Below, piece after piece: positions 46,788-63,969 of a DNA stretch of 64,000 nucleotides. Position 1 is the stretch's first letter. Each line of letters begins with the position of its first letter. A model generated the notes under the pieces. That model was not told the DNA's origin, searched no databases, and saw only the letters and a program-made list of their open reading frames with translations. The stretch is taken from positions 12,425 through 76,424 of the forward strand of contig SVGD01000007.1 of assembly GCA_015056485.1 (NCBI GenBank). The letters are read 5' to 3'. The DNA is from Clostridiales bacterium (GTDB taxonomy: Bacteria > Bacillota > Clostridia > TANB77 > CAG-508). Made by a program: the position numbers and the translations under genes.

Positions 46788-47495
46788 ATGAAGAAAATTT
46801 TTGCAAGTAAGGAATATAAAGATTTTATAGAATTACTCGATATTAGTAGAGGAAGATATAAAAAAGAAGATGTATTTAAAGATTTAATAACAACAATGGC
46901 ATTAAAAATAAGCAATTCAATTAAATATGATGAGAAAAACGAGGAATATTGCTCTAAAATAATGGAAAAGTATAGTGAAGGAGAAGAAATCCAGTTTGTA
47001 ATATTAAGTTATAGATTAAGCAAAATCTATAATAAATGTACTGAAATAATAGATGTTTTAGGACATATATACACTGATATTTCACTAAATAAAAAGGGAT
47101 TAAAACAGGATTTTACACCACAAAATTTGGCAAATCTAATGGCTGAAATTCAAGTTAAATTAGGAAATGATAAAAAAACAATTAAAGAAAAAGGATTTGT
47201 TACTATTGAAGATAGTTGTTGTGGTTCAGGAGTTCTTTTGCTTGAAAGGGCAAATACTATGAAAAAGGAAGGTATTGACACAACATCTGAATTGCTTGTT
47301 ATTGCAAATGACATAGATCCTATATGTGCCTATATGACATATATTCAATTATATATTTATTCAATACCAGGAGTTGTTACAATTGGAAATCCATTACAAC
47401 TAGAAACAAAAGAAACTTTTTATACACATAAATTATTAGCAATAGATCTAAATTTTGAGCAGGGATATACTGAAGAAAAAGAGATAGAGGAGTAG
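46788..47495 (+). CDS. Short HsdM/N6-adenine-methyltransferase-like protein with degenerate catalytic motif (possible inactive MTase or antirestriction decoy)
   Basis: 'GLKQDFTPQNLANLMAEI' and 'TIEDSCCGSGVLLLE' match MTase motif X and motif I. Motif IV reads 'IGNPLQ' instead of NPPF/Y. Only 235 aa. Confidence 0.5.
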   Translation: MKKIFASKEYKDFIELLDISRGRYKKEDVFKDLITTMALKISNSIKYDEKNEEYCSKIMEKYSEGEEIQFVILSYRLSKIYNKCTEIIDVLGHIYTDISLNKKGLKQDFTPQNLANLMAEIQVKLGNDKKTIKEKGFVTIEDSCCGSGVLLLERANTMKKEGIDTTSELLVIANDIDPICAYMTYIQLYIYSIPGVVTIGNPLQLETKETFYTHKLLAIDLNFEQGYTEEKEIEE

Positions 47496-47499
47496 TAAT

Positions 47500-48507
47500 A
47501 TGGCAGATGTAAAACAAAAGAAAAAGAAGAAAAATGCAAAAGAAATAATTGAAGAAAACAGAAAAAAGATAGTAGAGCAACTCATTCAAAATATGGAAAA
47601 GGGATATATATTTTCAGAATGGGCTTGGAATAGAAATGCTTTTTTACCTCAAAATGCAATAACTGGCAAAATATATCAAGGAATAAATAGATTAAATTTA
47701 AGTTTAGTAGCAATAGCGAATAAATATGAAGATCCTAGATGGCTAACATATAAAAAGCTTGATGAATTAGGTTATAAATTAAAGGAAGGTTCAAAAGGTA
47801 TATTATGTGAAAAATGGCTGTGGGAAAGACGAGAAAAAGTGGTAAATAAAGAAACTGGCGAAATAGAAAAAGATGAAAACGGAAAAGATAAGTATCAAAT
47901 AATACAACTTGAAAGACCAATTATTAATTTTTTTTATTTATATAATGCTAGTCAAATAGAAGGAATACCACCATATATTGGAGCAAAAACATTAGAAAAA
48001 ACAGATATTTTAGATATTGCTGATAATTTCATTGTTTCATCAGAATGTCCGATAGAAGAGAAATTTCAAGAAAGTGCTTATTATAGTCCAATTGATGACA
48101 AAATAACACTTCCTCCAAGAAAGTTTTTCAAATCTGATGAAGCTTTTTTAGGAACATTGTTACACGAAATGAGCCACTCTACAGGCAATGAAAATAGACT
48201 TAATAGAGATATAAAAAATACATTTGGTACAGAAAAATATGCGATAGAAGAATTAACTGCAGAACTTTCTTGTGTTTTTTTAGAAGCAGAATTGGACAAA
48301 GATATAGACTTTTCAAGGCAAGACCATATTAACTATTTTAATTCTTGGATTCAAGTATTAAAAAATGATCCAAATGAATTATATAAAGTTTGTGCAAATG
48401 CAAGTAAAAGTTGTAATAGATTGATGGGAAACTTTGAAAAAGTAAGGAATATAGAAAATATTCAAATGCTTGTAGATGAAGAAAATGAAATTGATGAAGC
48501 AATATAG
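47500..48507 (+). CDS. ardC: ArdC-like antirestriction protein (ssDNA-binding N-domain plus zincin HExxH domain)
   Basis: 'KIYQGINRLNLSLVAIANKYEDPRWLTYKKLDELGYKLKEGSKG' matches the ArdC-N/DUF1738 pattern (Y.GiN...dPrW.Ty.Q....G..v.kGekg). 'LLHEMSHSTGN' is an HExxH metallopeptidase motif. Confidence 0.8.
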   Translation: MADVKQKKKKKNAKEIIEENRKKIVEQLIQNMEKGYIFSEWAWNRNAFLPQNAITGKIYQGINRLNLSLVAIANKYEDPRWLTYKKLDELGYKLKEGSKGILCEKWLWERREKVVNKETGEIEKDENGKDKYQIIQLERPIINFFYLYNASQIEGIPPYIGAKTLEKTDILDIADNFIVSSECPIEEKFQESAYYSPIDDKITLPPRKFFKSDEAFLGTLLHEMSHSTGNENRLNRDIKNTFGTEKYAIEELTAELSCVFLEAELDKDIDFSRQDHINYFNSWIQVLKNDPNELYKVCANASKSCNRLMGNFEKVRNIENIQMLVDEENEIDEAI

Positions 48508-48522
48508 AAAAGAGGTAATTAA

Positions 48523-61533: not shown

Positions 61534-62697
61534 ATGGATTTAGAAAATTTACATACTAAATTAGATAGTTATGATTTATTAATTGAAGAAGCTCAAGAAC
61601 AGTGGAAAGAAATACACCGATTAAAGCCGAAAGATATGAATGATTTAGAATTTCAAAACATAATACAACAAACTAGATTAGATAATCAATTAATAGATAA
61701 TTTTTTGAAAAATGATCCATTAAAATGTAAAGCTTTAATTTATAGAGGTGCTAATAAAGAATATTTATATAATTATGTTTCAAAAAAAGATGGTTGGAAT
61801 TTAACACCGATTCAAGATTGGTTATTACAGGATTTGCATAACTTAAAAAAAGAAAAACATTTTCCATATGCCTATGATAGAGAAATTTCTGATATACGAA
61901 CCATTACACAAGAAGAATATAATAAATTACTTAACAAATTTGACAATGATGAAGAGTTTTCTTTTGATGAACAAGACTGCTTTTTATTAAAAGATTCAAA
62001 TAATGAAAAATATATTGCTGTAGATAATACTACAAGTAATATGTGGTCAGAAGAGTTTTTAGAAAAAGAATTTGCTGAAAGATATTTAAGAGGAGAGGAT
62101 CTTGATAAATTAAGAGAAGAAGAGCGTAAATATGAAGTGAAAATTTATGAAACACAAGATGATTATGATAGAGGAGAACCATTTCAATTAGATATATATG
62201 CTAATTTAGATGAAGCAAAGGAAGAACTAAAAAAATCAATTAAATTTAACCACTATTTTTCTGGCAACATAATAAATCAATATACAGGAAGAGAAGAATA
62301 TAGTTATTATTTGTCATCAGAAAAAGATAAATATAAATATATTATTTTATGCAATTTACAAGGAAATAATAAAGAATTTGAAAATCAATTTCTATTGGTA
62401 AGAGATCTTGATACTTTAAATAGTAATTTTGAGATTGATTTAACAGGTGGATTCTATTTTAATTGTGAATACAAAGTTCAATATCCTGTATTAGTAAAAA
62501 CAATATCAACAGTGAAAGAATTATTGGATTTTTGTTCAGAAAGGAATATTGAGATTCCAAAAGATGTTATGAGAAAAAATGGTTTTGTAGCAGGTGGAAA
62601 AGAAGGACTTTTTATAGATGAAAATTTGGAGGCAGTTGGTTGGATAGAAGAATTAGGAGAGAAAGAGGAATTAGAAGAACTAGGAGAGCAGGAATAA
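61534..62697 (+). CDS. Hypothetical protein
   Basis: 387-aa ORF. Confidence 0.45.
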   Translation: MDLENLHTKLDSYDLLIEEAQEQWKEIHRLKPKDMNDLEFQNIIQQTRLDNQLIDNFLKNDPLKCKALIYRGANKEYLYNYVSKKDGWNLTPIQDWLLQDLHNLKKEKHFPYAYDREISDIRTITQEEYNKLLNKFDNDEEFSFDEQDCFLLKDSNNEKYIAVDNTTSNMWSEEFLEKEFAERYLRGEDLDKLREEERKYEVKIYETQDDYDRGEPFQLDIYANLDEAKEELKKSIKFNHYFSGNIINQYTGREEYSYYLSSEKDKYKYIILCNLQGNNKEFENQFLLVRDLDTLNSNFEIDLTGGFYFNCEYKVQYPVLVKTISTVKELLDFCSERNIEIPKDVMRKNGFVAGGKEGLFIDENLEAVGWIEELGEKEELEELGEQE

Positions 62698-63456
62698 ATG
62701 TATGTGGATATAAAATTAGGAGATTGTATAAAATTAATGAATGAAATTGAAGATACATCAATAGATTTAATTTTATGCGATTTACCTTTTCAAAAGACAA
62801 AAAATAAATGGGATAAGATAATACCTTTTGATAAATTATGGGAAAATTATAAACGAATTATAAAAGAAAATGGAGCAATTATATTATTCTGTCAAGGTAG
62901 TTTTTACATAGATTTAGTAAATAGTAATAGGGAAGATTTTAGGTATGATTTAGTGTGGGATAAGAATATGACAACAGGTTTTTTAAATTGCAATAGGCAA
63001 CCTTTACGAAAACACGAGCAAATAGCAGTTTTTTATAAAAAACAACCAACATATAATCCTATATTCAGTGAGGGACAACCATTACACGGGAAAGGAAAAA
63101 ACTACAAAACATCAAGTATTAAGAATAATAATTACGGAAAATTTAATATGTTAGATGATTATAGAAAAGGAAATACACAAAAATATCCGACTTCTATAAT
63201 AACAATTCAAAAGGTACACCCTTCAAAGACTATACACCCAACTGAAAAACCAGTAGAGTTAATGAAATATTTAATTGAAACTTATACTAAACCAGGAGAA
63301 ACGATTTTAGACAATTGTATGGGTTCTGGAACAGTAGGAATTGCTTGCTTAAATAGTAATAGAAATTTTATAGGAATTGAAATAAATGAAAACTATTATA
63401 AATTAGCAAGCAACAGAATATATAAAGAAATTGTAAATGGAGGAATGTGCAGATGA
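62698..63456 (+). CDS. Orphan beta-class DNA methyltransferase (N6-adenine/N4-cytosine; motif IV before motif I)
   Basis: 'LILCDLPFQ' is motif IV (D/S-P-P-Y/F type). 'HPTEKPVELMKYLIETYTKPGETILDNCMGSGTVGIACLNSNRNFIGIEINENYY' spans the AdoMet-binding FxGxG region. No restriction partner gene is adjacent. Confidence 0.85.
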   Translation: MYVDIKLGDCIKLMNEIEDTSIDLILCDLPFQKTKNKWDKIIPFDKLWENYKRIIKENGAIILFCQGSFYIDLVNSNREDFRYDLVWDKNMTTGFLNCNRQPLRKHEQIAVFYKKQPTYNPIFSEGQPLHGKGKNYKTSSIKNNNYGKFNMLDDYRKGNTQKYPTSIITIQKVHPSKTIHPTEKPVELMKYLIETYTKPGETILDNCMGSGTVGIACLNSNRNFIGIEINENYYKLASNRIYKEIVNGGMCR

Positions 63457-63791
63457 TTGAATTTATTGAAAAAGAACCTTTTGAATCTTATGATAATTGG
63501 TATGATCGAAAAAGTCTATTATATCCTAATGTAATGATAAAAGATGGAAAAGAATATTTTATTAAGAATAGGAGAGAACCACACGAAATTCGTTACCATA
63601 CTGATATTCCAGAAATAATACAGCAACTAAAAGAAAATAATGGCACATATGCTACATTTTATAGTAATAATAGAGTAATTTGGGATTTTCTTGATTATAT
63701 AATAGAACACCATTATTCTTTTGATAAAACATTTAATGAATTGAAGGAATATAAAGATGGGAATTTTACAGATTTTTCACGGAAATCTTAA
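63447..63791 (+). CDS. Hypothetical protein
   Basis: 114-aa ORF overlapping the MTase stop. Confidence 0.4.
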   Translation: MQMIEFIEKEPFESYDNWYDRKSLLYPNVMIKDGKEYFIKNRREPHEIRYHTDIPEIIQQLKENNGTYATFYSNNRVIWDFLDYIIEHHYSFDKTFNELKEYKDGNFTDFSRKS

Positions 63792-63969
63792 TGAAATATC
63801 ATCAGCATTTATGTATAGACTATATGATACTAATTTAATAAACGAAATTAAAAAAATTGTAGAACTCATTAATAATAGAGAATGGGAAATAGCCAGAAGT
63901 GAAATTCAACAAAAAGGGGAATGTTATACACAAATAGAACAGGAGAAAACAGAAGAAGTAGAGCAATAG
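63757..63969 (+). CDS. Hypothetical small protein
   Basis: 70-aa ORF with RBS AAGGAA upstream. Confidence 0.35.
   Translation: MGILQIFHGNLNEISSAFMYRLYDTNLINEIKKIVELINNREWEIARSEIQQKGECYTQIEQEKTEEVEQ

What the first reader, a model, noticed from the sequence alone, without database searches (positions are those of the whole stretch)
46788..63969. Leading-region-like anti-defence island
About 17 kb of co-oriented, translationally coupled genes include ArdC (47500..48507), the HsdM-like protein, a pol-beta nucleotidyltransferase, a tandem SpoVG-domain protein, an orphan beta-class DNA MTase (62698..63456) and at least 20 unknown acidic proteins. This matches the composition reported for plasmid leading regions, which are rich in anti-restriction and anti-defence genes. 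If the replicon is circular and the window end lies near its start, the block would enter the recipient first, ahead of the ParB-like gene and oriT. The unknown genes are a natural pool for new anti-defence factors.
Basis: partly seen in the sequence, partly recalled or inferred. Interest (0 to 1): 0.65.

Follow-up and report, generated by a model that had tools for sequence, protein, structure and literature searches.

The report
Anti-restriction gene array, not leading region
This is a tightly packed array of anti-restriction-type and unknown acidic genes on a conjugative element of uncultured gut Clostridia; it resembles the establishment/anti-defence islands already described on plasmids but does not lie next to the likely transfer origin.

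Summary
The genes are real. The block holds a full-length ArdC, a beta-class DNA methyltransferase with no recognisable nuclease beside it, a 235-aa half-methyltransferase family, a pol-beta nucleotidyltransferase, an LPD11 protein, a tandem SpoVG protein and 19 ORFs with no family. All lie on one strand, and 24 of 26 gene junctions are 21 nt or less. The host element is conjugative, with a MobP3-like relaxase, a coupling protein (T4CP) and type IV secretion (T4SS) genes. It comes from uncultured gut Clostridia, and some relatives are integrated beside secA.

The "leading region" premise fails. The window end is not adjacent to its start: at least 17 kb of non-overlapping DNA lies between them. 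I found a candidate oriT at 1640-1775: three covarying hairpins around TTATCCTGCC, the MOBP nick motif. An inverted second copy lies 5.5 kb upstream. From either copy the block is at least 13 kb and 30 ORFs away, and probably 23 kb or more, or else 45-62 kb.

Five copies of one promoter-operator-terminator module head the element's operons. One copy splits the block at 55.6 kb. This favours repressor-controlled expression on entry, as in p576, over timing by position.

Related elements keep the array in the same order but with mosaic gene content. Acidic C-terminal tails are specific to these proteins and remain unexplained. The T4CP and VirB4 genes are frameshifted, so transfer may be defective.

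The parts
46788..47495 (+). 235-aa half-methyltransferase-like protein. It has the AdoMet motif DSCCGSG, but motif IV is degenerate (GNPLQ).
   Evidence: Pfam N6_Mtase E 6e-6, profile positions 4-139 of 311. phrog_5696 1.5e-49 over 15-226 of 250. No similarity to the element's own HsdM. No PDB sequence match.
47500..48507 (+). ArdC anti-restriction protein: ssDNA-binding N-domain plus zincin HExxH domain, with a 22-aa acidic C-terminal extension.
48523..49647 (+). pol-beta-type nucleotidyltransferase (GS-x11-DLD motif) with an unknown C-terminal half.
   Evidence: Pfam NTP_transf_2 5.6e-5 (above its cut-off) and Polbeta 1.6e-4 (22.2 bits, below its 26.9-bit cut-off). Motif read from the sequence.
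49648..50658 (+). Protein with a C-terminal LPD11 domain (large polyvalent-protein-associated domain 11).
   Evidence: Pfam LPD11 4.2e-29. phrog_15551. ArdC+LPD11 fusions exist in relatives P0149 and P0157.
50674..55129 (+). Ten coupled ORFs of unknown function, mostly acidic with acidic C-tails. Includes the 316-aa family at 52347-53297.
   Evidence: No Pfam or PHROG hits. The 316-aa family has only 57 clusters, all at 64% identity or more. AF2 model is low confidence. Genes come and go among relatives.
55202..55579 (+). XRE-type HTH_3 regulator, a paralog (40% identity) of the HTH gene that precedes the ParB promoter module. Candidate repressor.
55576..55721 (+). Promoter-operator-leader-terminator module m5. 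It has paired TTGCAA operator half-sites, a -35-like TATACA, an extended -10 (TGTTAATAT) and a terminator hairpin at 55663-55691 followed by a T-run. It splits the block into two transcription units.
   Evidence: The module sits at the same place in L077, L080 and L082.
55722..56342 (+). Tandem SpoVG-domain protein.
   Evidence: Pfam SpoVG 1.3e-17, two stretches. NCBIfam.
56299..61100 (+). Nine coupled ORFs of unknown function. Metagenome gene calls start the first one at 56344.
61087..61524 (+). DUF7659 protein.
   Evidence: Pfam 1.1e-19.
61534..62697 (+). 387-aa acidic protein of unknown function, immediately upstream of the methyltransferase.
62698..63456 (+). Beta-class N6/N4 DNA methyltransferase (DLPF motif, then GSG) with no recognisable nuclease partner.
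63447..63969 (+). Two small ORFs. The same kind of array continues beyond the window to about 67 kb.
46678..46758 (.). Two conserved hairpins between the adhesin gene and the first block gene.
42522..46671 (+). Promoter module m4 plus the TED/SpaA-repeat surface adhesin gene. The first half of the block probably shares this transcription unit.
29249..34893 (+). Second block of coupled acidic ORFs of the same kind. Includes two DarA_C-type paralogs (32432-33430 and 33408-34031).
1640..1775 (+). Candidate oriT copy A: three hairpins and the nick-like motif TTATCCTGCC at 1724-1733.

Best explanation
The block is the larger part of an accessory array of at least 20 kb (46.8 to about 67 kb). It has a smaller twin at 29.2-34.9 kb. 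Both sit on a conjugative element of uncultured gut Clostridia that carries a MobP3-like relaxase. Some relatives are integrated, which makes them ICEs.

The array most likely helps the element establish itself in a new host. ArdC and the methyltransferase(s) would shield incoming DNA from restriction. The many element-specific acidic proteins are candidates for other host-takeover or anti-defence roles.

The block is not the leading region, so its timing would not come from position next to oriT. It would come from a repeated sigma-A-type promoter with paired TTGCAA operator sites and a leader terminator. This module heads at least five operons of the element, including one inside the block. 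While the resident element makes its repressor, the promoters would be shut. In a repressor-free recipient, once the second strand is made, they would all fire (zygotic induction, as shown for p576).

Shown here: gene content, coupling, the modules, mosaic synteny, and the distance from the oriT candidates. Inferred: anti-defence function of the unknown genes, repressor control, and which oriT copy and strand is used.
For: Gene families. ArdC homologues occur on 3167 plasmids, 1774 of them conjugative.

Conjugative backbone: ParB, MobP3-like relaxase, T4CP, TrbL, pilins, M23 peptidase, sortase and adhesin.

Relatives in Clostridia MAGs and human-gut metagenomes; some have a tyrosine recombinase next to secA.

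Five near-identical promoter-operator modules, each followed by a hairpin and T-run. They are conserved at the same positions in relatives, and two are directly preceded by HTH_3 paralogs.

The array is syntenic but mosaic in L077 and L080: ArdC 74-78%, SpoVG 75-76% in both; methyltransferase 84% in L077 only, as L080 ends before that point. Seven genes are absent from both relatives.

This matches the description of establishment/anti-defence islands in the pLS20/p576 family: ardC and methylases, mostly unknown genes, variable content, and repeated upstream regulatory sequences with a repressor (PMC8708921).

The position is far from both oriT candidates.
Against: No function has been tested. 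19 of 27 ORFs have no detectable family, and none matches a known anti-defence family other than ArdC and the methyltransferases.

The same promoter module also heads the ParB/relaxase/T4SS operon and the adhesin gene. The regulon is therefore not specific to establishment, and the genes may be expressed in donors.

The repressor is not identified.

The T4CP and VirB4-like genes are frameshifted in this lineage, so the element may no longer transfer on its own.

The oriT assignment rests on motif similarity, structure covariation and one hybrid copy. It does not rest on nicking data.
Confidence: 0.55

Rival explanations
1. It is a true positional leading region in an extended sense. Transfer starts at the inverted oriT copy B (about -3.9 kb) on the minus strand and proceeds leftwards. 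It passes the replication and integrase end, crosses the junction of the circular form, and reaches the array from its 64-67 kb end. The transferred strand would be the template of all these genes, so they could be expressed early.
For: Copy B carries the nick-like motif on the template strand, upstream of the relaxase gene. This is the geometry measured for the MOBL prototype pLS20 (PMC5313138). All array genes point towards copy B around the circle. The strict lower bound on the distance is only 13.2 kb and about 30 ORFs.
Against: Even at the lower bound, the block starts where the enrichment reported for leading regions ends (the first ~30 ORFs; PMC11541004). Relatives indicate at least 10 kb more between them: an integrase, two ~400-aa genes, small genes and another module. 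The ORFs nearest copy B are replication-type and unknown genes, not anti-defence genes. No ssDNA-promoter-like structure precedes the operons. Every gene of the element has this orientation, so orientation does not discriminate.
Confidence: 0.18
2. The array encodes proteins made in the donor and delivered into the recipient through the T4SS. It would be, in effect, a polyvalent protein split into separately translated pieces. The shared acidic C-terminal tails would be either the delivery signal or relics of inter-domain linkers.
For: Acidic tails occur in 26 of 33 coupled array genes against 3 of 25 coupled genes elsewhere in the window (Fisher 7e-7). ArdC has an acidic extension beyond the fold shared with R388 ArdC. 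The array carries domains defined from polyvalent proteins: MPTase-PolyVal, LPD11 and DarA_C. ArdC is fused to LPD11 or other LPD domains in relatives. The first half of the block appears to be co-transcribed with the donor-side adhesin.
Against: To my knowledge no acidic C-terminal T4SS signal is known for Gram-positive systems. The tails overlap the purine-rich ribosome-binding regions of the next genes, and the proteins are acidic throughout (D+E fraction 0.19 against 0.14). Nothing was tested.
Confidence: 0.12
3. The array is cargo of unknown function unrelated to defence evasion, or a decaying remnant on an element that no longer transfers.
For: Most ORFs have no homologues outside this element family. 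T4CP, VirB4, the reverse transcriptase (RT) and a transposase are frameshifted.
Against: The array ORFs are intact and tightly coupled. They are conserved at 45-84% identity in relatives while others are gained and lost. ArdC keeps its catalytic HExxH.
Confidence: 0.13
4. The genes are the early region of a prophage.
For: Several families also occur in phages (phrog_7245, phrog_5696, phrog_67). A phage-type replisome organizer lies upstream of the window.
Against: No capsid, tail, terminase or lysis genes occur in 64 kb plus 17 kb of flanks. The neighbourhood is a relaxase, T4CP, T4SS, sortase and adhesin. There is no match in the phage collection or in viral contigs.
Confidence: 0.02

Closest known systems
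Establishment / anti-defence islands of the pLS20-p576 family of Bacillus conjugative plasmids (Val-Calvo et al. 2021, PMC8708921)
   Same: Firmicute conjugative element with a MOBL/MobP3-type relaxase. Clustered operons contain ardC and DNA methylases among mostly unknown genes. Content varies between relatives. A conserved regulatory sequence is repeated upstream of several operons. In p576 this sequence is a strong promoter shut by an element-encoded repressor, which gives transient expression on entry.
   Different: Here the repeated module also heads the conjugation and adhesin operons. It carries a leader terminator. The candidate regulators are XRE-type HTH proteins rather than ribbon-helix-helix proteins. 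All genes share one orientation. There is no sequence similarity to the Bacillus plasmids beyond about 30% identity in the relaxase N-domain.
Leading-region anti-defence islands of plasmids (Samuel et al. 2024, PMC11541004)
   Same: Gene repertoire of anti-restriction genes, methyltransferases without a cognate nuclease and many unknown small genes. Uniform orientation.
   Different: Those islands lie within the first ~30 ORFs after oriT and often have Frpo-type ssDNA promoters. This block lies at least 30 ORFs and 13 kb (probably 23 kb or more) from one oriT candidate, and 45-62 kb from the other. It has a double-strand-type promoter.
Polyvalent proteins of phages and conjugative elements (Iyer et al. 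2017; recalled from memory, with domain names as in Pfam)
   Same: ArdC-N, MPTase-PolyVal, LPD11, DarA_C and methyltransferase modules occur together.
   Different: Here they are separate, translationally coupled genes rather than one giant polypeptide.
R388/pSa ArdC (PDB 6SNA, 6I89)
   Same: Full-length homology, including the metalloprotease HExxH.
   Different: About 30% identity or less. This protein has an extra acidic C-terminal tail and a Gram-positive host.

Membership tests
Plasmid leading region (Samuel et al. 2024) | Lies within roughly the first 30 ORFs on the side of oriT that enters first. | tested here: not met
   The oriT candidates are at 1640-1775 and about -3.9 kb. The block is 45-62 kb from the first. 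It is at least 13.2 kb and 30 ORFs from the second, and probably 23 kb or more. The test depends on the oriT prediction.
Plasmid leading region (Samuel et al. 2024) | Genes oriented so that the transferred strand is their template. | tested here: inconclusive
   True only if transfer starts at copy B. False for copy A. Every gene in the element has the same orientation.
Plasmid leading region (Samuel et al. 2024) | Frpo/ssi-type single-strand promoters upstream of the operons. | tested here: not met
   The block has only two internal intergenic gaps of 72 nt or more, plus a 116-nt gap at its start. One internal gap holds a conventional promoter module. The start gap holds two short hairpins of at most 25 bp. 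Rfam gave no hit. No dedicated Frpo model was available.
Plasmid leading region (Samuel et al. 2024) | Enrichment of anti-defence genes. | tested here: met
   ArdC, a beta-class methyltransferase, a methyltransferase-like protein and LPD11. DarA_C occurs in the twin block.
Establishment regulon of the p576 type (EGeRS2) | A conserved regulatory sequence containing a promoter, repeated upstream of several operons that include ardC. | tested here: met
   Five copies in the window (224, 15750, 28068, 42537, 55590), with 0-3 mismatches to the 32-nt core of the first copy. Conserved in relatives. The module is not restricted to establishment operons.
Establishment regulon of the p576 type (EGeRS2) | An element-encoded repressor that shuts these promoters and its own. 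| not testable with these tools
   Candidates are HTH_3 at 55202-55579 and its paralog upstream of ParB, each ending just before a module.
Establishment regulon of the p576 type (EGeRS2) | Variable gene content among related elements. | tested here: met
ArdC | N-terminal ArdC-N ssDNA-binding domain plus C-terminal zincin domain with HExxH. | tested here: met
   (HEMSH aligned with HEATH of 6SNA).
Orphan beta-class DNA methyltransferase | Motif IV (DPPY-like) lies N-terminal of motif I, and there is no cognate nuclease. | tested here: inconclusive
   DLPF at residues 28-31 and GSG at about residue 210. N6_N4_Mtase matched full length. The neighbours have no nuclease hit, but their function is unknown.
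MOBP-type oriT | Nick motif (C/T)ATCCTG(C/T) a few nucleotides 3' of an inverted repeat, near the relaxase gene. | tested here: met
   TTATCCTGCC starts directly after a 7-bp stem, so the predicted nick lies about 7 nt 3' of it. The motif occurs once in 64 kb. The stems covary. Nicking itself is not testable here.
Polyvalent protein | One large polypeptide joining many such domains. | tested here: not met
   The domains are on separate ORFs. Fusions exist only in relatives.

The most novel reading that the evidence does not exclude
About 30 proteins of the two arrays share an acidic C-terminal tail that equally coupled backbone genes lack. The most novel reading not excluded is that the tail is a common export or recognition tag. 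In that reading the arrays encode a cocktail of small effectors that the Gram-positive T4SS injects with the DNA: a polyvalent protein split into pieces. The pair of inverted oriT copies would let the element send either arm first.
Probability: 0.1. Interest if true: 0.8.

Novelty: new member of a known kind. Interest (0 to 1): 0.45.

Why it matters
If the reading holds, this element family extends the establishment/anti-defence island idea from Bacillus plasmids and Gram-negative leading regions to conjugative elements of uncultured gut Clostridia. It shows that such islands need not sit next to oriT when a repressor-controlled regulon can time them. It offers about 19 (with the twin block and the continuation, over 30) compact, element-specific ORFs as candidates for inhibitors of Clostridial defence systems. 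The repeated promoter module gives a simple handle for finding the rest of the regulon. The candidate oriT pair is directly testable.

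Tried and rejected
- Megablast of the block against plasmid and phage collections gave no match.
- An exact-pattern scan of viral contigs and of metagenome contigs gave no match.
- A chimeric protein query meant to walk beyond the known flanks was swamped by a large sigma-factor family.
- I briefly entertained an ~84-kb circular plasmid, because several contigs are 82-87 kb long. I dropped the idea. 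Relatives are integrated next to secA with a tyrosine recombinase. The region after the sigma gene continues with further element genes and another promoter module. The two flanks do not overlap.
- Rfam found no family in the window.
- The generic promoter scan is uninformative at 25% GC (127 found against 135 expected).
- The AF2 model of the most conserved unknown protein (52347-53297) was poor (pLDDT 55.8), so I ran no fold search.
- PADLOC found only generic reverse-transcriptase hits for the split RT, and nothing for its neighbours.
- The oriT-like element has no match in PLSDB.
- An ssDNA-promoter reading of the hairpins at 46678-46758 was rejected. The stems are at most 25 bp and contain no properly spaced -35 and -10 boxes.
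- The explanation of the acidic tails as a mere by-product of Shine-Dalgarno overlap was rejected as sufficient.

Full report
**What is there.**

The window is 23-31% GC (about 26% on average), has no tRNA genes, and carries essentially every plausible gene on the + strand. In 46788-63969 I count 27 ORFs. 24 of their 26 junctions are 21 nt or less, and many are ATGA overlaps.

Family searches confirm most of the named genes:
- ArdC (47500-48507) has both of its domains. It aligns end to end with the solved R388 ArdC, including the HExxH.
- A pol-beta-type nucleotidyltransferase lies at 48523-49647.
- An LPD11 domain sits at the end of 49648-50658.
- An XRE-type HTH gene lies at 55202-55579.
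- A tandem SpoVG protein lies at 55722-56342.
- A DUF7659 protein lies at 61087-61524.
- A beta-class N6/N4 methyltransferase lies at 62698-63456.

The "HsdM-like" gene (46788-47495) is weaker than stated. It matches only the first half of the N6_Mtase profile and is unrelated to the element's own HsdM. It belongs to a stand-alone ~250-aa family that is also seen in phages.

Nineteen ORFs have no family hit, and 15 of these have pI below 5.5.

**What the element is.**

The rest of the window encodes:
- ParB, a relaxase and a coupling protein (T4CP). The relaxase matches Pfam MobL and NCBIfam MobP3 at 136.6 bits, just under the 150-bit cut-off.
- TrbL, pilins, a VirB4-like ATPase and an M23 peptidase.
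- A complete type I R-M system, an ExoIII-like gene and a group-II-like reverse transcriptase (RT).
- A sortase, a UPF0236 transposase and a TED/SpaA adhesin.

No virion genes were found in the block or its twin by PHROGs, nor anywhere else in the window by Pfam. The prophage alternative is excluded.

There is no near match in PLSDB or the phage collection. Relaxase relatives in PLSDB are only ~30% identical, on Bacillus thuringiensis plasmids. Relatives at 73-76% relaxase identity lie in MAGs of uncultured Clostridia. Further relatives occur in many human-gut metagenome contigs. In two of these (L012, L013) the element starts with a tyrosine recombinase next to secA. At least part of the family is therefore integrative (ICEs).

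**The premise of the leading-region idea.**

Contigs that carry exactly the same proteins continue 9.5 kb beyond the window end. That stretch holds more small acidic ORFs to about 67 kb, then an acetyltransferase, membrane proteins, three HTH genes and a sigma factor.

The contigs also extend 7.7 kb before the window start. That stretch holds iterons, a replisome organizer, seven small genes, topoisomerase III and regulators. The two extensions do not overlap.

Relatives show that the sequence after the sigma gene goes on with two ~400-aa genes, small genes and another copy of the element's promoter module. The window end is therefore not near its start.

**A candidate oriT, in two inverted copies.**

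Between ParB and the small gene before the relaxase (1640-1775) lies a ~140-nt element with three hairpins. The invariant single-stranded TTATCCTGCC sits between the second and third hairpins. This is the MOBP nick consensus (C/T)ATCCTG(C/T). It shares TATCCTGCCC with the RP4 nick region, and it lies just 3' of an inverted repeat, as in RP4 (PMC3772185). The 10-mer occurs exactly once in the window.

A second copy, inverted, lies 5.5 kb upstream, before the topoisomerase gene (L003 3734-3839, about -3.9 kb in window coordinates). Every relative examined that spans both positions has both copies.

Across 14 distinct sequences the three stems are 99-100% paired. Six base pairs changed on both sides, and no shuffle out of 500 reached the observed covariation.

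In one relative (L017) copy B is a hybrid. It has the A-type 5' arm and the B-type 3' arm, and the switch falls inside TTATCCTGCC. A nick-bounded conversion would produce this. A crossover inside an 11-nt identical stretch could also arise by chance.

Two inverted oriTs are known from R6K, whose relaxase is also MOBP3. That statement is from memory (Avila et al. 1996) and I did not verify it here.

**What this means for the block.**

If the motif-bearing strand is nicked, copy A sends the + strand rightwards. The relaxase and T4SS genes go first, and the block follows 45-62 kb later as the non-template strand.

Copy B sends the - strand leftwards. [quoted passage not shown] The order of entry is then the small genes, the replication module, the element end, the far right arm, and only after that the array, from its 67-kb end.

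The strict lower bound from sequence in hand is 13.2 kb and about 30 ORFs between copy B and 63969. With what relatives show, 23 kb or more is likely. In both cases the 5.5-kb segment between the two copies enters last.

The enrichment defined for leading regions covers the first ~30 ORFs (PMC11541004). The block lies beyond that range.

**How the block is probably expressed.**

A ~80-nt module recurs five times in the window: before ParB, at 15.7 kb, at 28.1 kb, before the adhesin and at 55.6 kb inside the block. Its consensus is ACATAA..TTTTGCAAAAA..TTGCAAAAT.CTGCAGTATACA.TCAA-N8-GTG(C/T)TAA.AT. This reads as two palindromic TTGCAA sites, a -35-like TATACA and an extended -10.

In four of the five copies a short leader and a strong hairpin with a T-run follow. 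The copy at 15.7 kb has a longer, different leader.

The modules sit at the same positions in relatives. The modules before ParB and before SpoVG are each directly preceded by an HTH_3 gene, and these two genes are paralogs.

The block is thus two transcription units. The first half appears to run on from the adhesin gene, past two conserved hairpins at 46678-46758. The second half starts at module m5.

This layout is closest to the establishment regulon of p576. There, a repressor shuts strong promoters repeated before ardC and other operons, and entry into a naive cell gives a transient burst (PMC8708921). Unlike p576, the same module here also controls the conjugation genes.

**Comparative behaviour.**

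In two more distant relatives (L077, L080) the order is kept: adhesin, ArdC, LPD11, the 316-aa protein, HTH, SpoVG. L077 also reaches the methyltransferase; L080 ends before that point. Identities range from 42 to 84%. Seven genes of the window's block are missing from both relatives, and others change length.

ArdC is fused to LPD11 or other LPD domains in some relatives. The most conserved unknown protein (52347-53297) has only 57 clusters among 5.8 billion sequences, all at 64% identity or more. Its AF2 model was too poor to use.

**An unexplained signature.**

Among genes whose successor starts within 25 nt, 26 of 33 in the two acidic blocks end in a tail with at least 4 D/E in the last 10 residues. 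Only 3 of 25 such genes elsewhere in the window do (Fisher 7e-7). Overlap with the next ribosome-binding site therefore does not suffice as an explanation.

The tails may be relics of linkers of polyvalent proteins, or a shared signal. I treat the second idea as the low-probability novel case.

**Caveat on activity.**

The T4CP gene carries a 1-nt insertion right after its Walker B motif. The VirB4-like gene has a frameshift in an A/T run. The RT and the transposase are also split. The T4CP and VirB4 splits recur in independent assemblies. T4CP is also broken, at other positions, in relatives. The element in this window may need help to transfer.

**Verdict.**

The block is an establishment/anti-defence-type island in composition and evolutionary behaviour. 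It is a new member of a kind already described for Firmicute plasmids and for Gram-negative leading regions. The "leading region" label is not supported by position.

Noticed in passing
window 1640-1775 and L003 3734-3839 (about -3.9 kb relative to the window): Candidate oriT in two inverted copies flanking TopoIII-HTH-response regulator-HTH-ParB. It has three covarying hairpins and the invariant TTATCCTGCC (MOBP nick motif). Both copies are present in every relative that spans both positions. L017 copy B is an A/B hybrid that switches inside the motif.
   Followed up: yes
window 211-345, 15736-15975, 28057-28208, 42522-42663, 55576-55721: Five copies of one promoter-operator module, with 0-3 mismatches to the 32-nt core of the first copy. 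Four are followed by a leader hairpin plus T-run. This points to a single regulon covering the conjugation, adhesin and accessory operons, and perhaps to attenuation or antitermination control.
   Followed up: partly
window 4673-6833, 11371-13063, 25171-27244, 37814-39338: The T4CP, VirB4-like ATPase, group-II-like reverse transcriptase and UPF0236 transposase genes are each split by a frameshift. The T4CP and VirB4 splits recur in independent metagenome assemblies. T4CP is also broken at other sites in relatives, whereas VirB4 is intact there.
   Followed up: partly
window 29249-34893 and 46788-63969: Acidic C-terminal tails are strongly enriched in the array proteins compared with equally coupled backbone genes (26 of 33 against 3 of 25).
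   Followed up: partly
window 29249-34893: A second, smaller array of coupled acidic ORFs. It includes two DarA_C-type paralogs (32432-33430 and 33408-34031, 41% identity) and another paralog pair (30984-31298 and 31295-31819).
   Followed up: partly
window 46678-46758: Two adjacent hairpins (9-bp and ~20-25-bp stems) directly after the adhesin gene. They are conserved in L077 and L080 with a compensatory change. Their function is unknown: terminator, processing site or ssDNA structure.
   Followed up: partly
window 42664-46671: A 1335-aa adhesin with a thioester (TED) domain and eight SpaA repeats, three of them nearly identical. It ends at LPKTGE, immediately followed by a stop. The usual hydrophobic segment and charged tail of a sortase signal are missing.
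   Followed up: no
window 16897-22889: A complete type I R-M system (hsdM, hsdS, hsdR) is carried by the same element that carries ArdC.
   Followed up: no
L003 1-90 (about -7.7 kb): Direct repeats of TTGTACAGAAAATTGATACAAAA (iteron-like) lie just upstream of a 96-aa gene and a phage-type replisome organizer. They suggest that the element can replicate autonomously.
   Followed up: no
L001 13672-14373 (about 66.4-67.1 kb): A 233-aa acidic protein beyond the window end contains YRG, SWT and E-x-E-like motifs reminiscent of ADP-ribosyltransferases. This was read by eye only.
   Followed up: no
window 39622-40935: A 437-aa protein made of six DUF4379 treble-clef zinc-finger repeats, next to an AbrB/MazE-like gene (40961-41215).
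   Followed up: no
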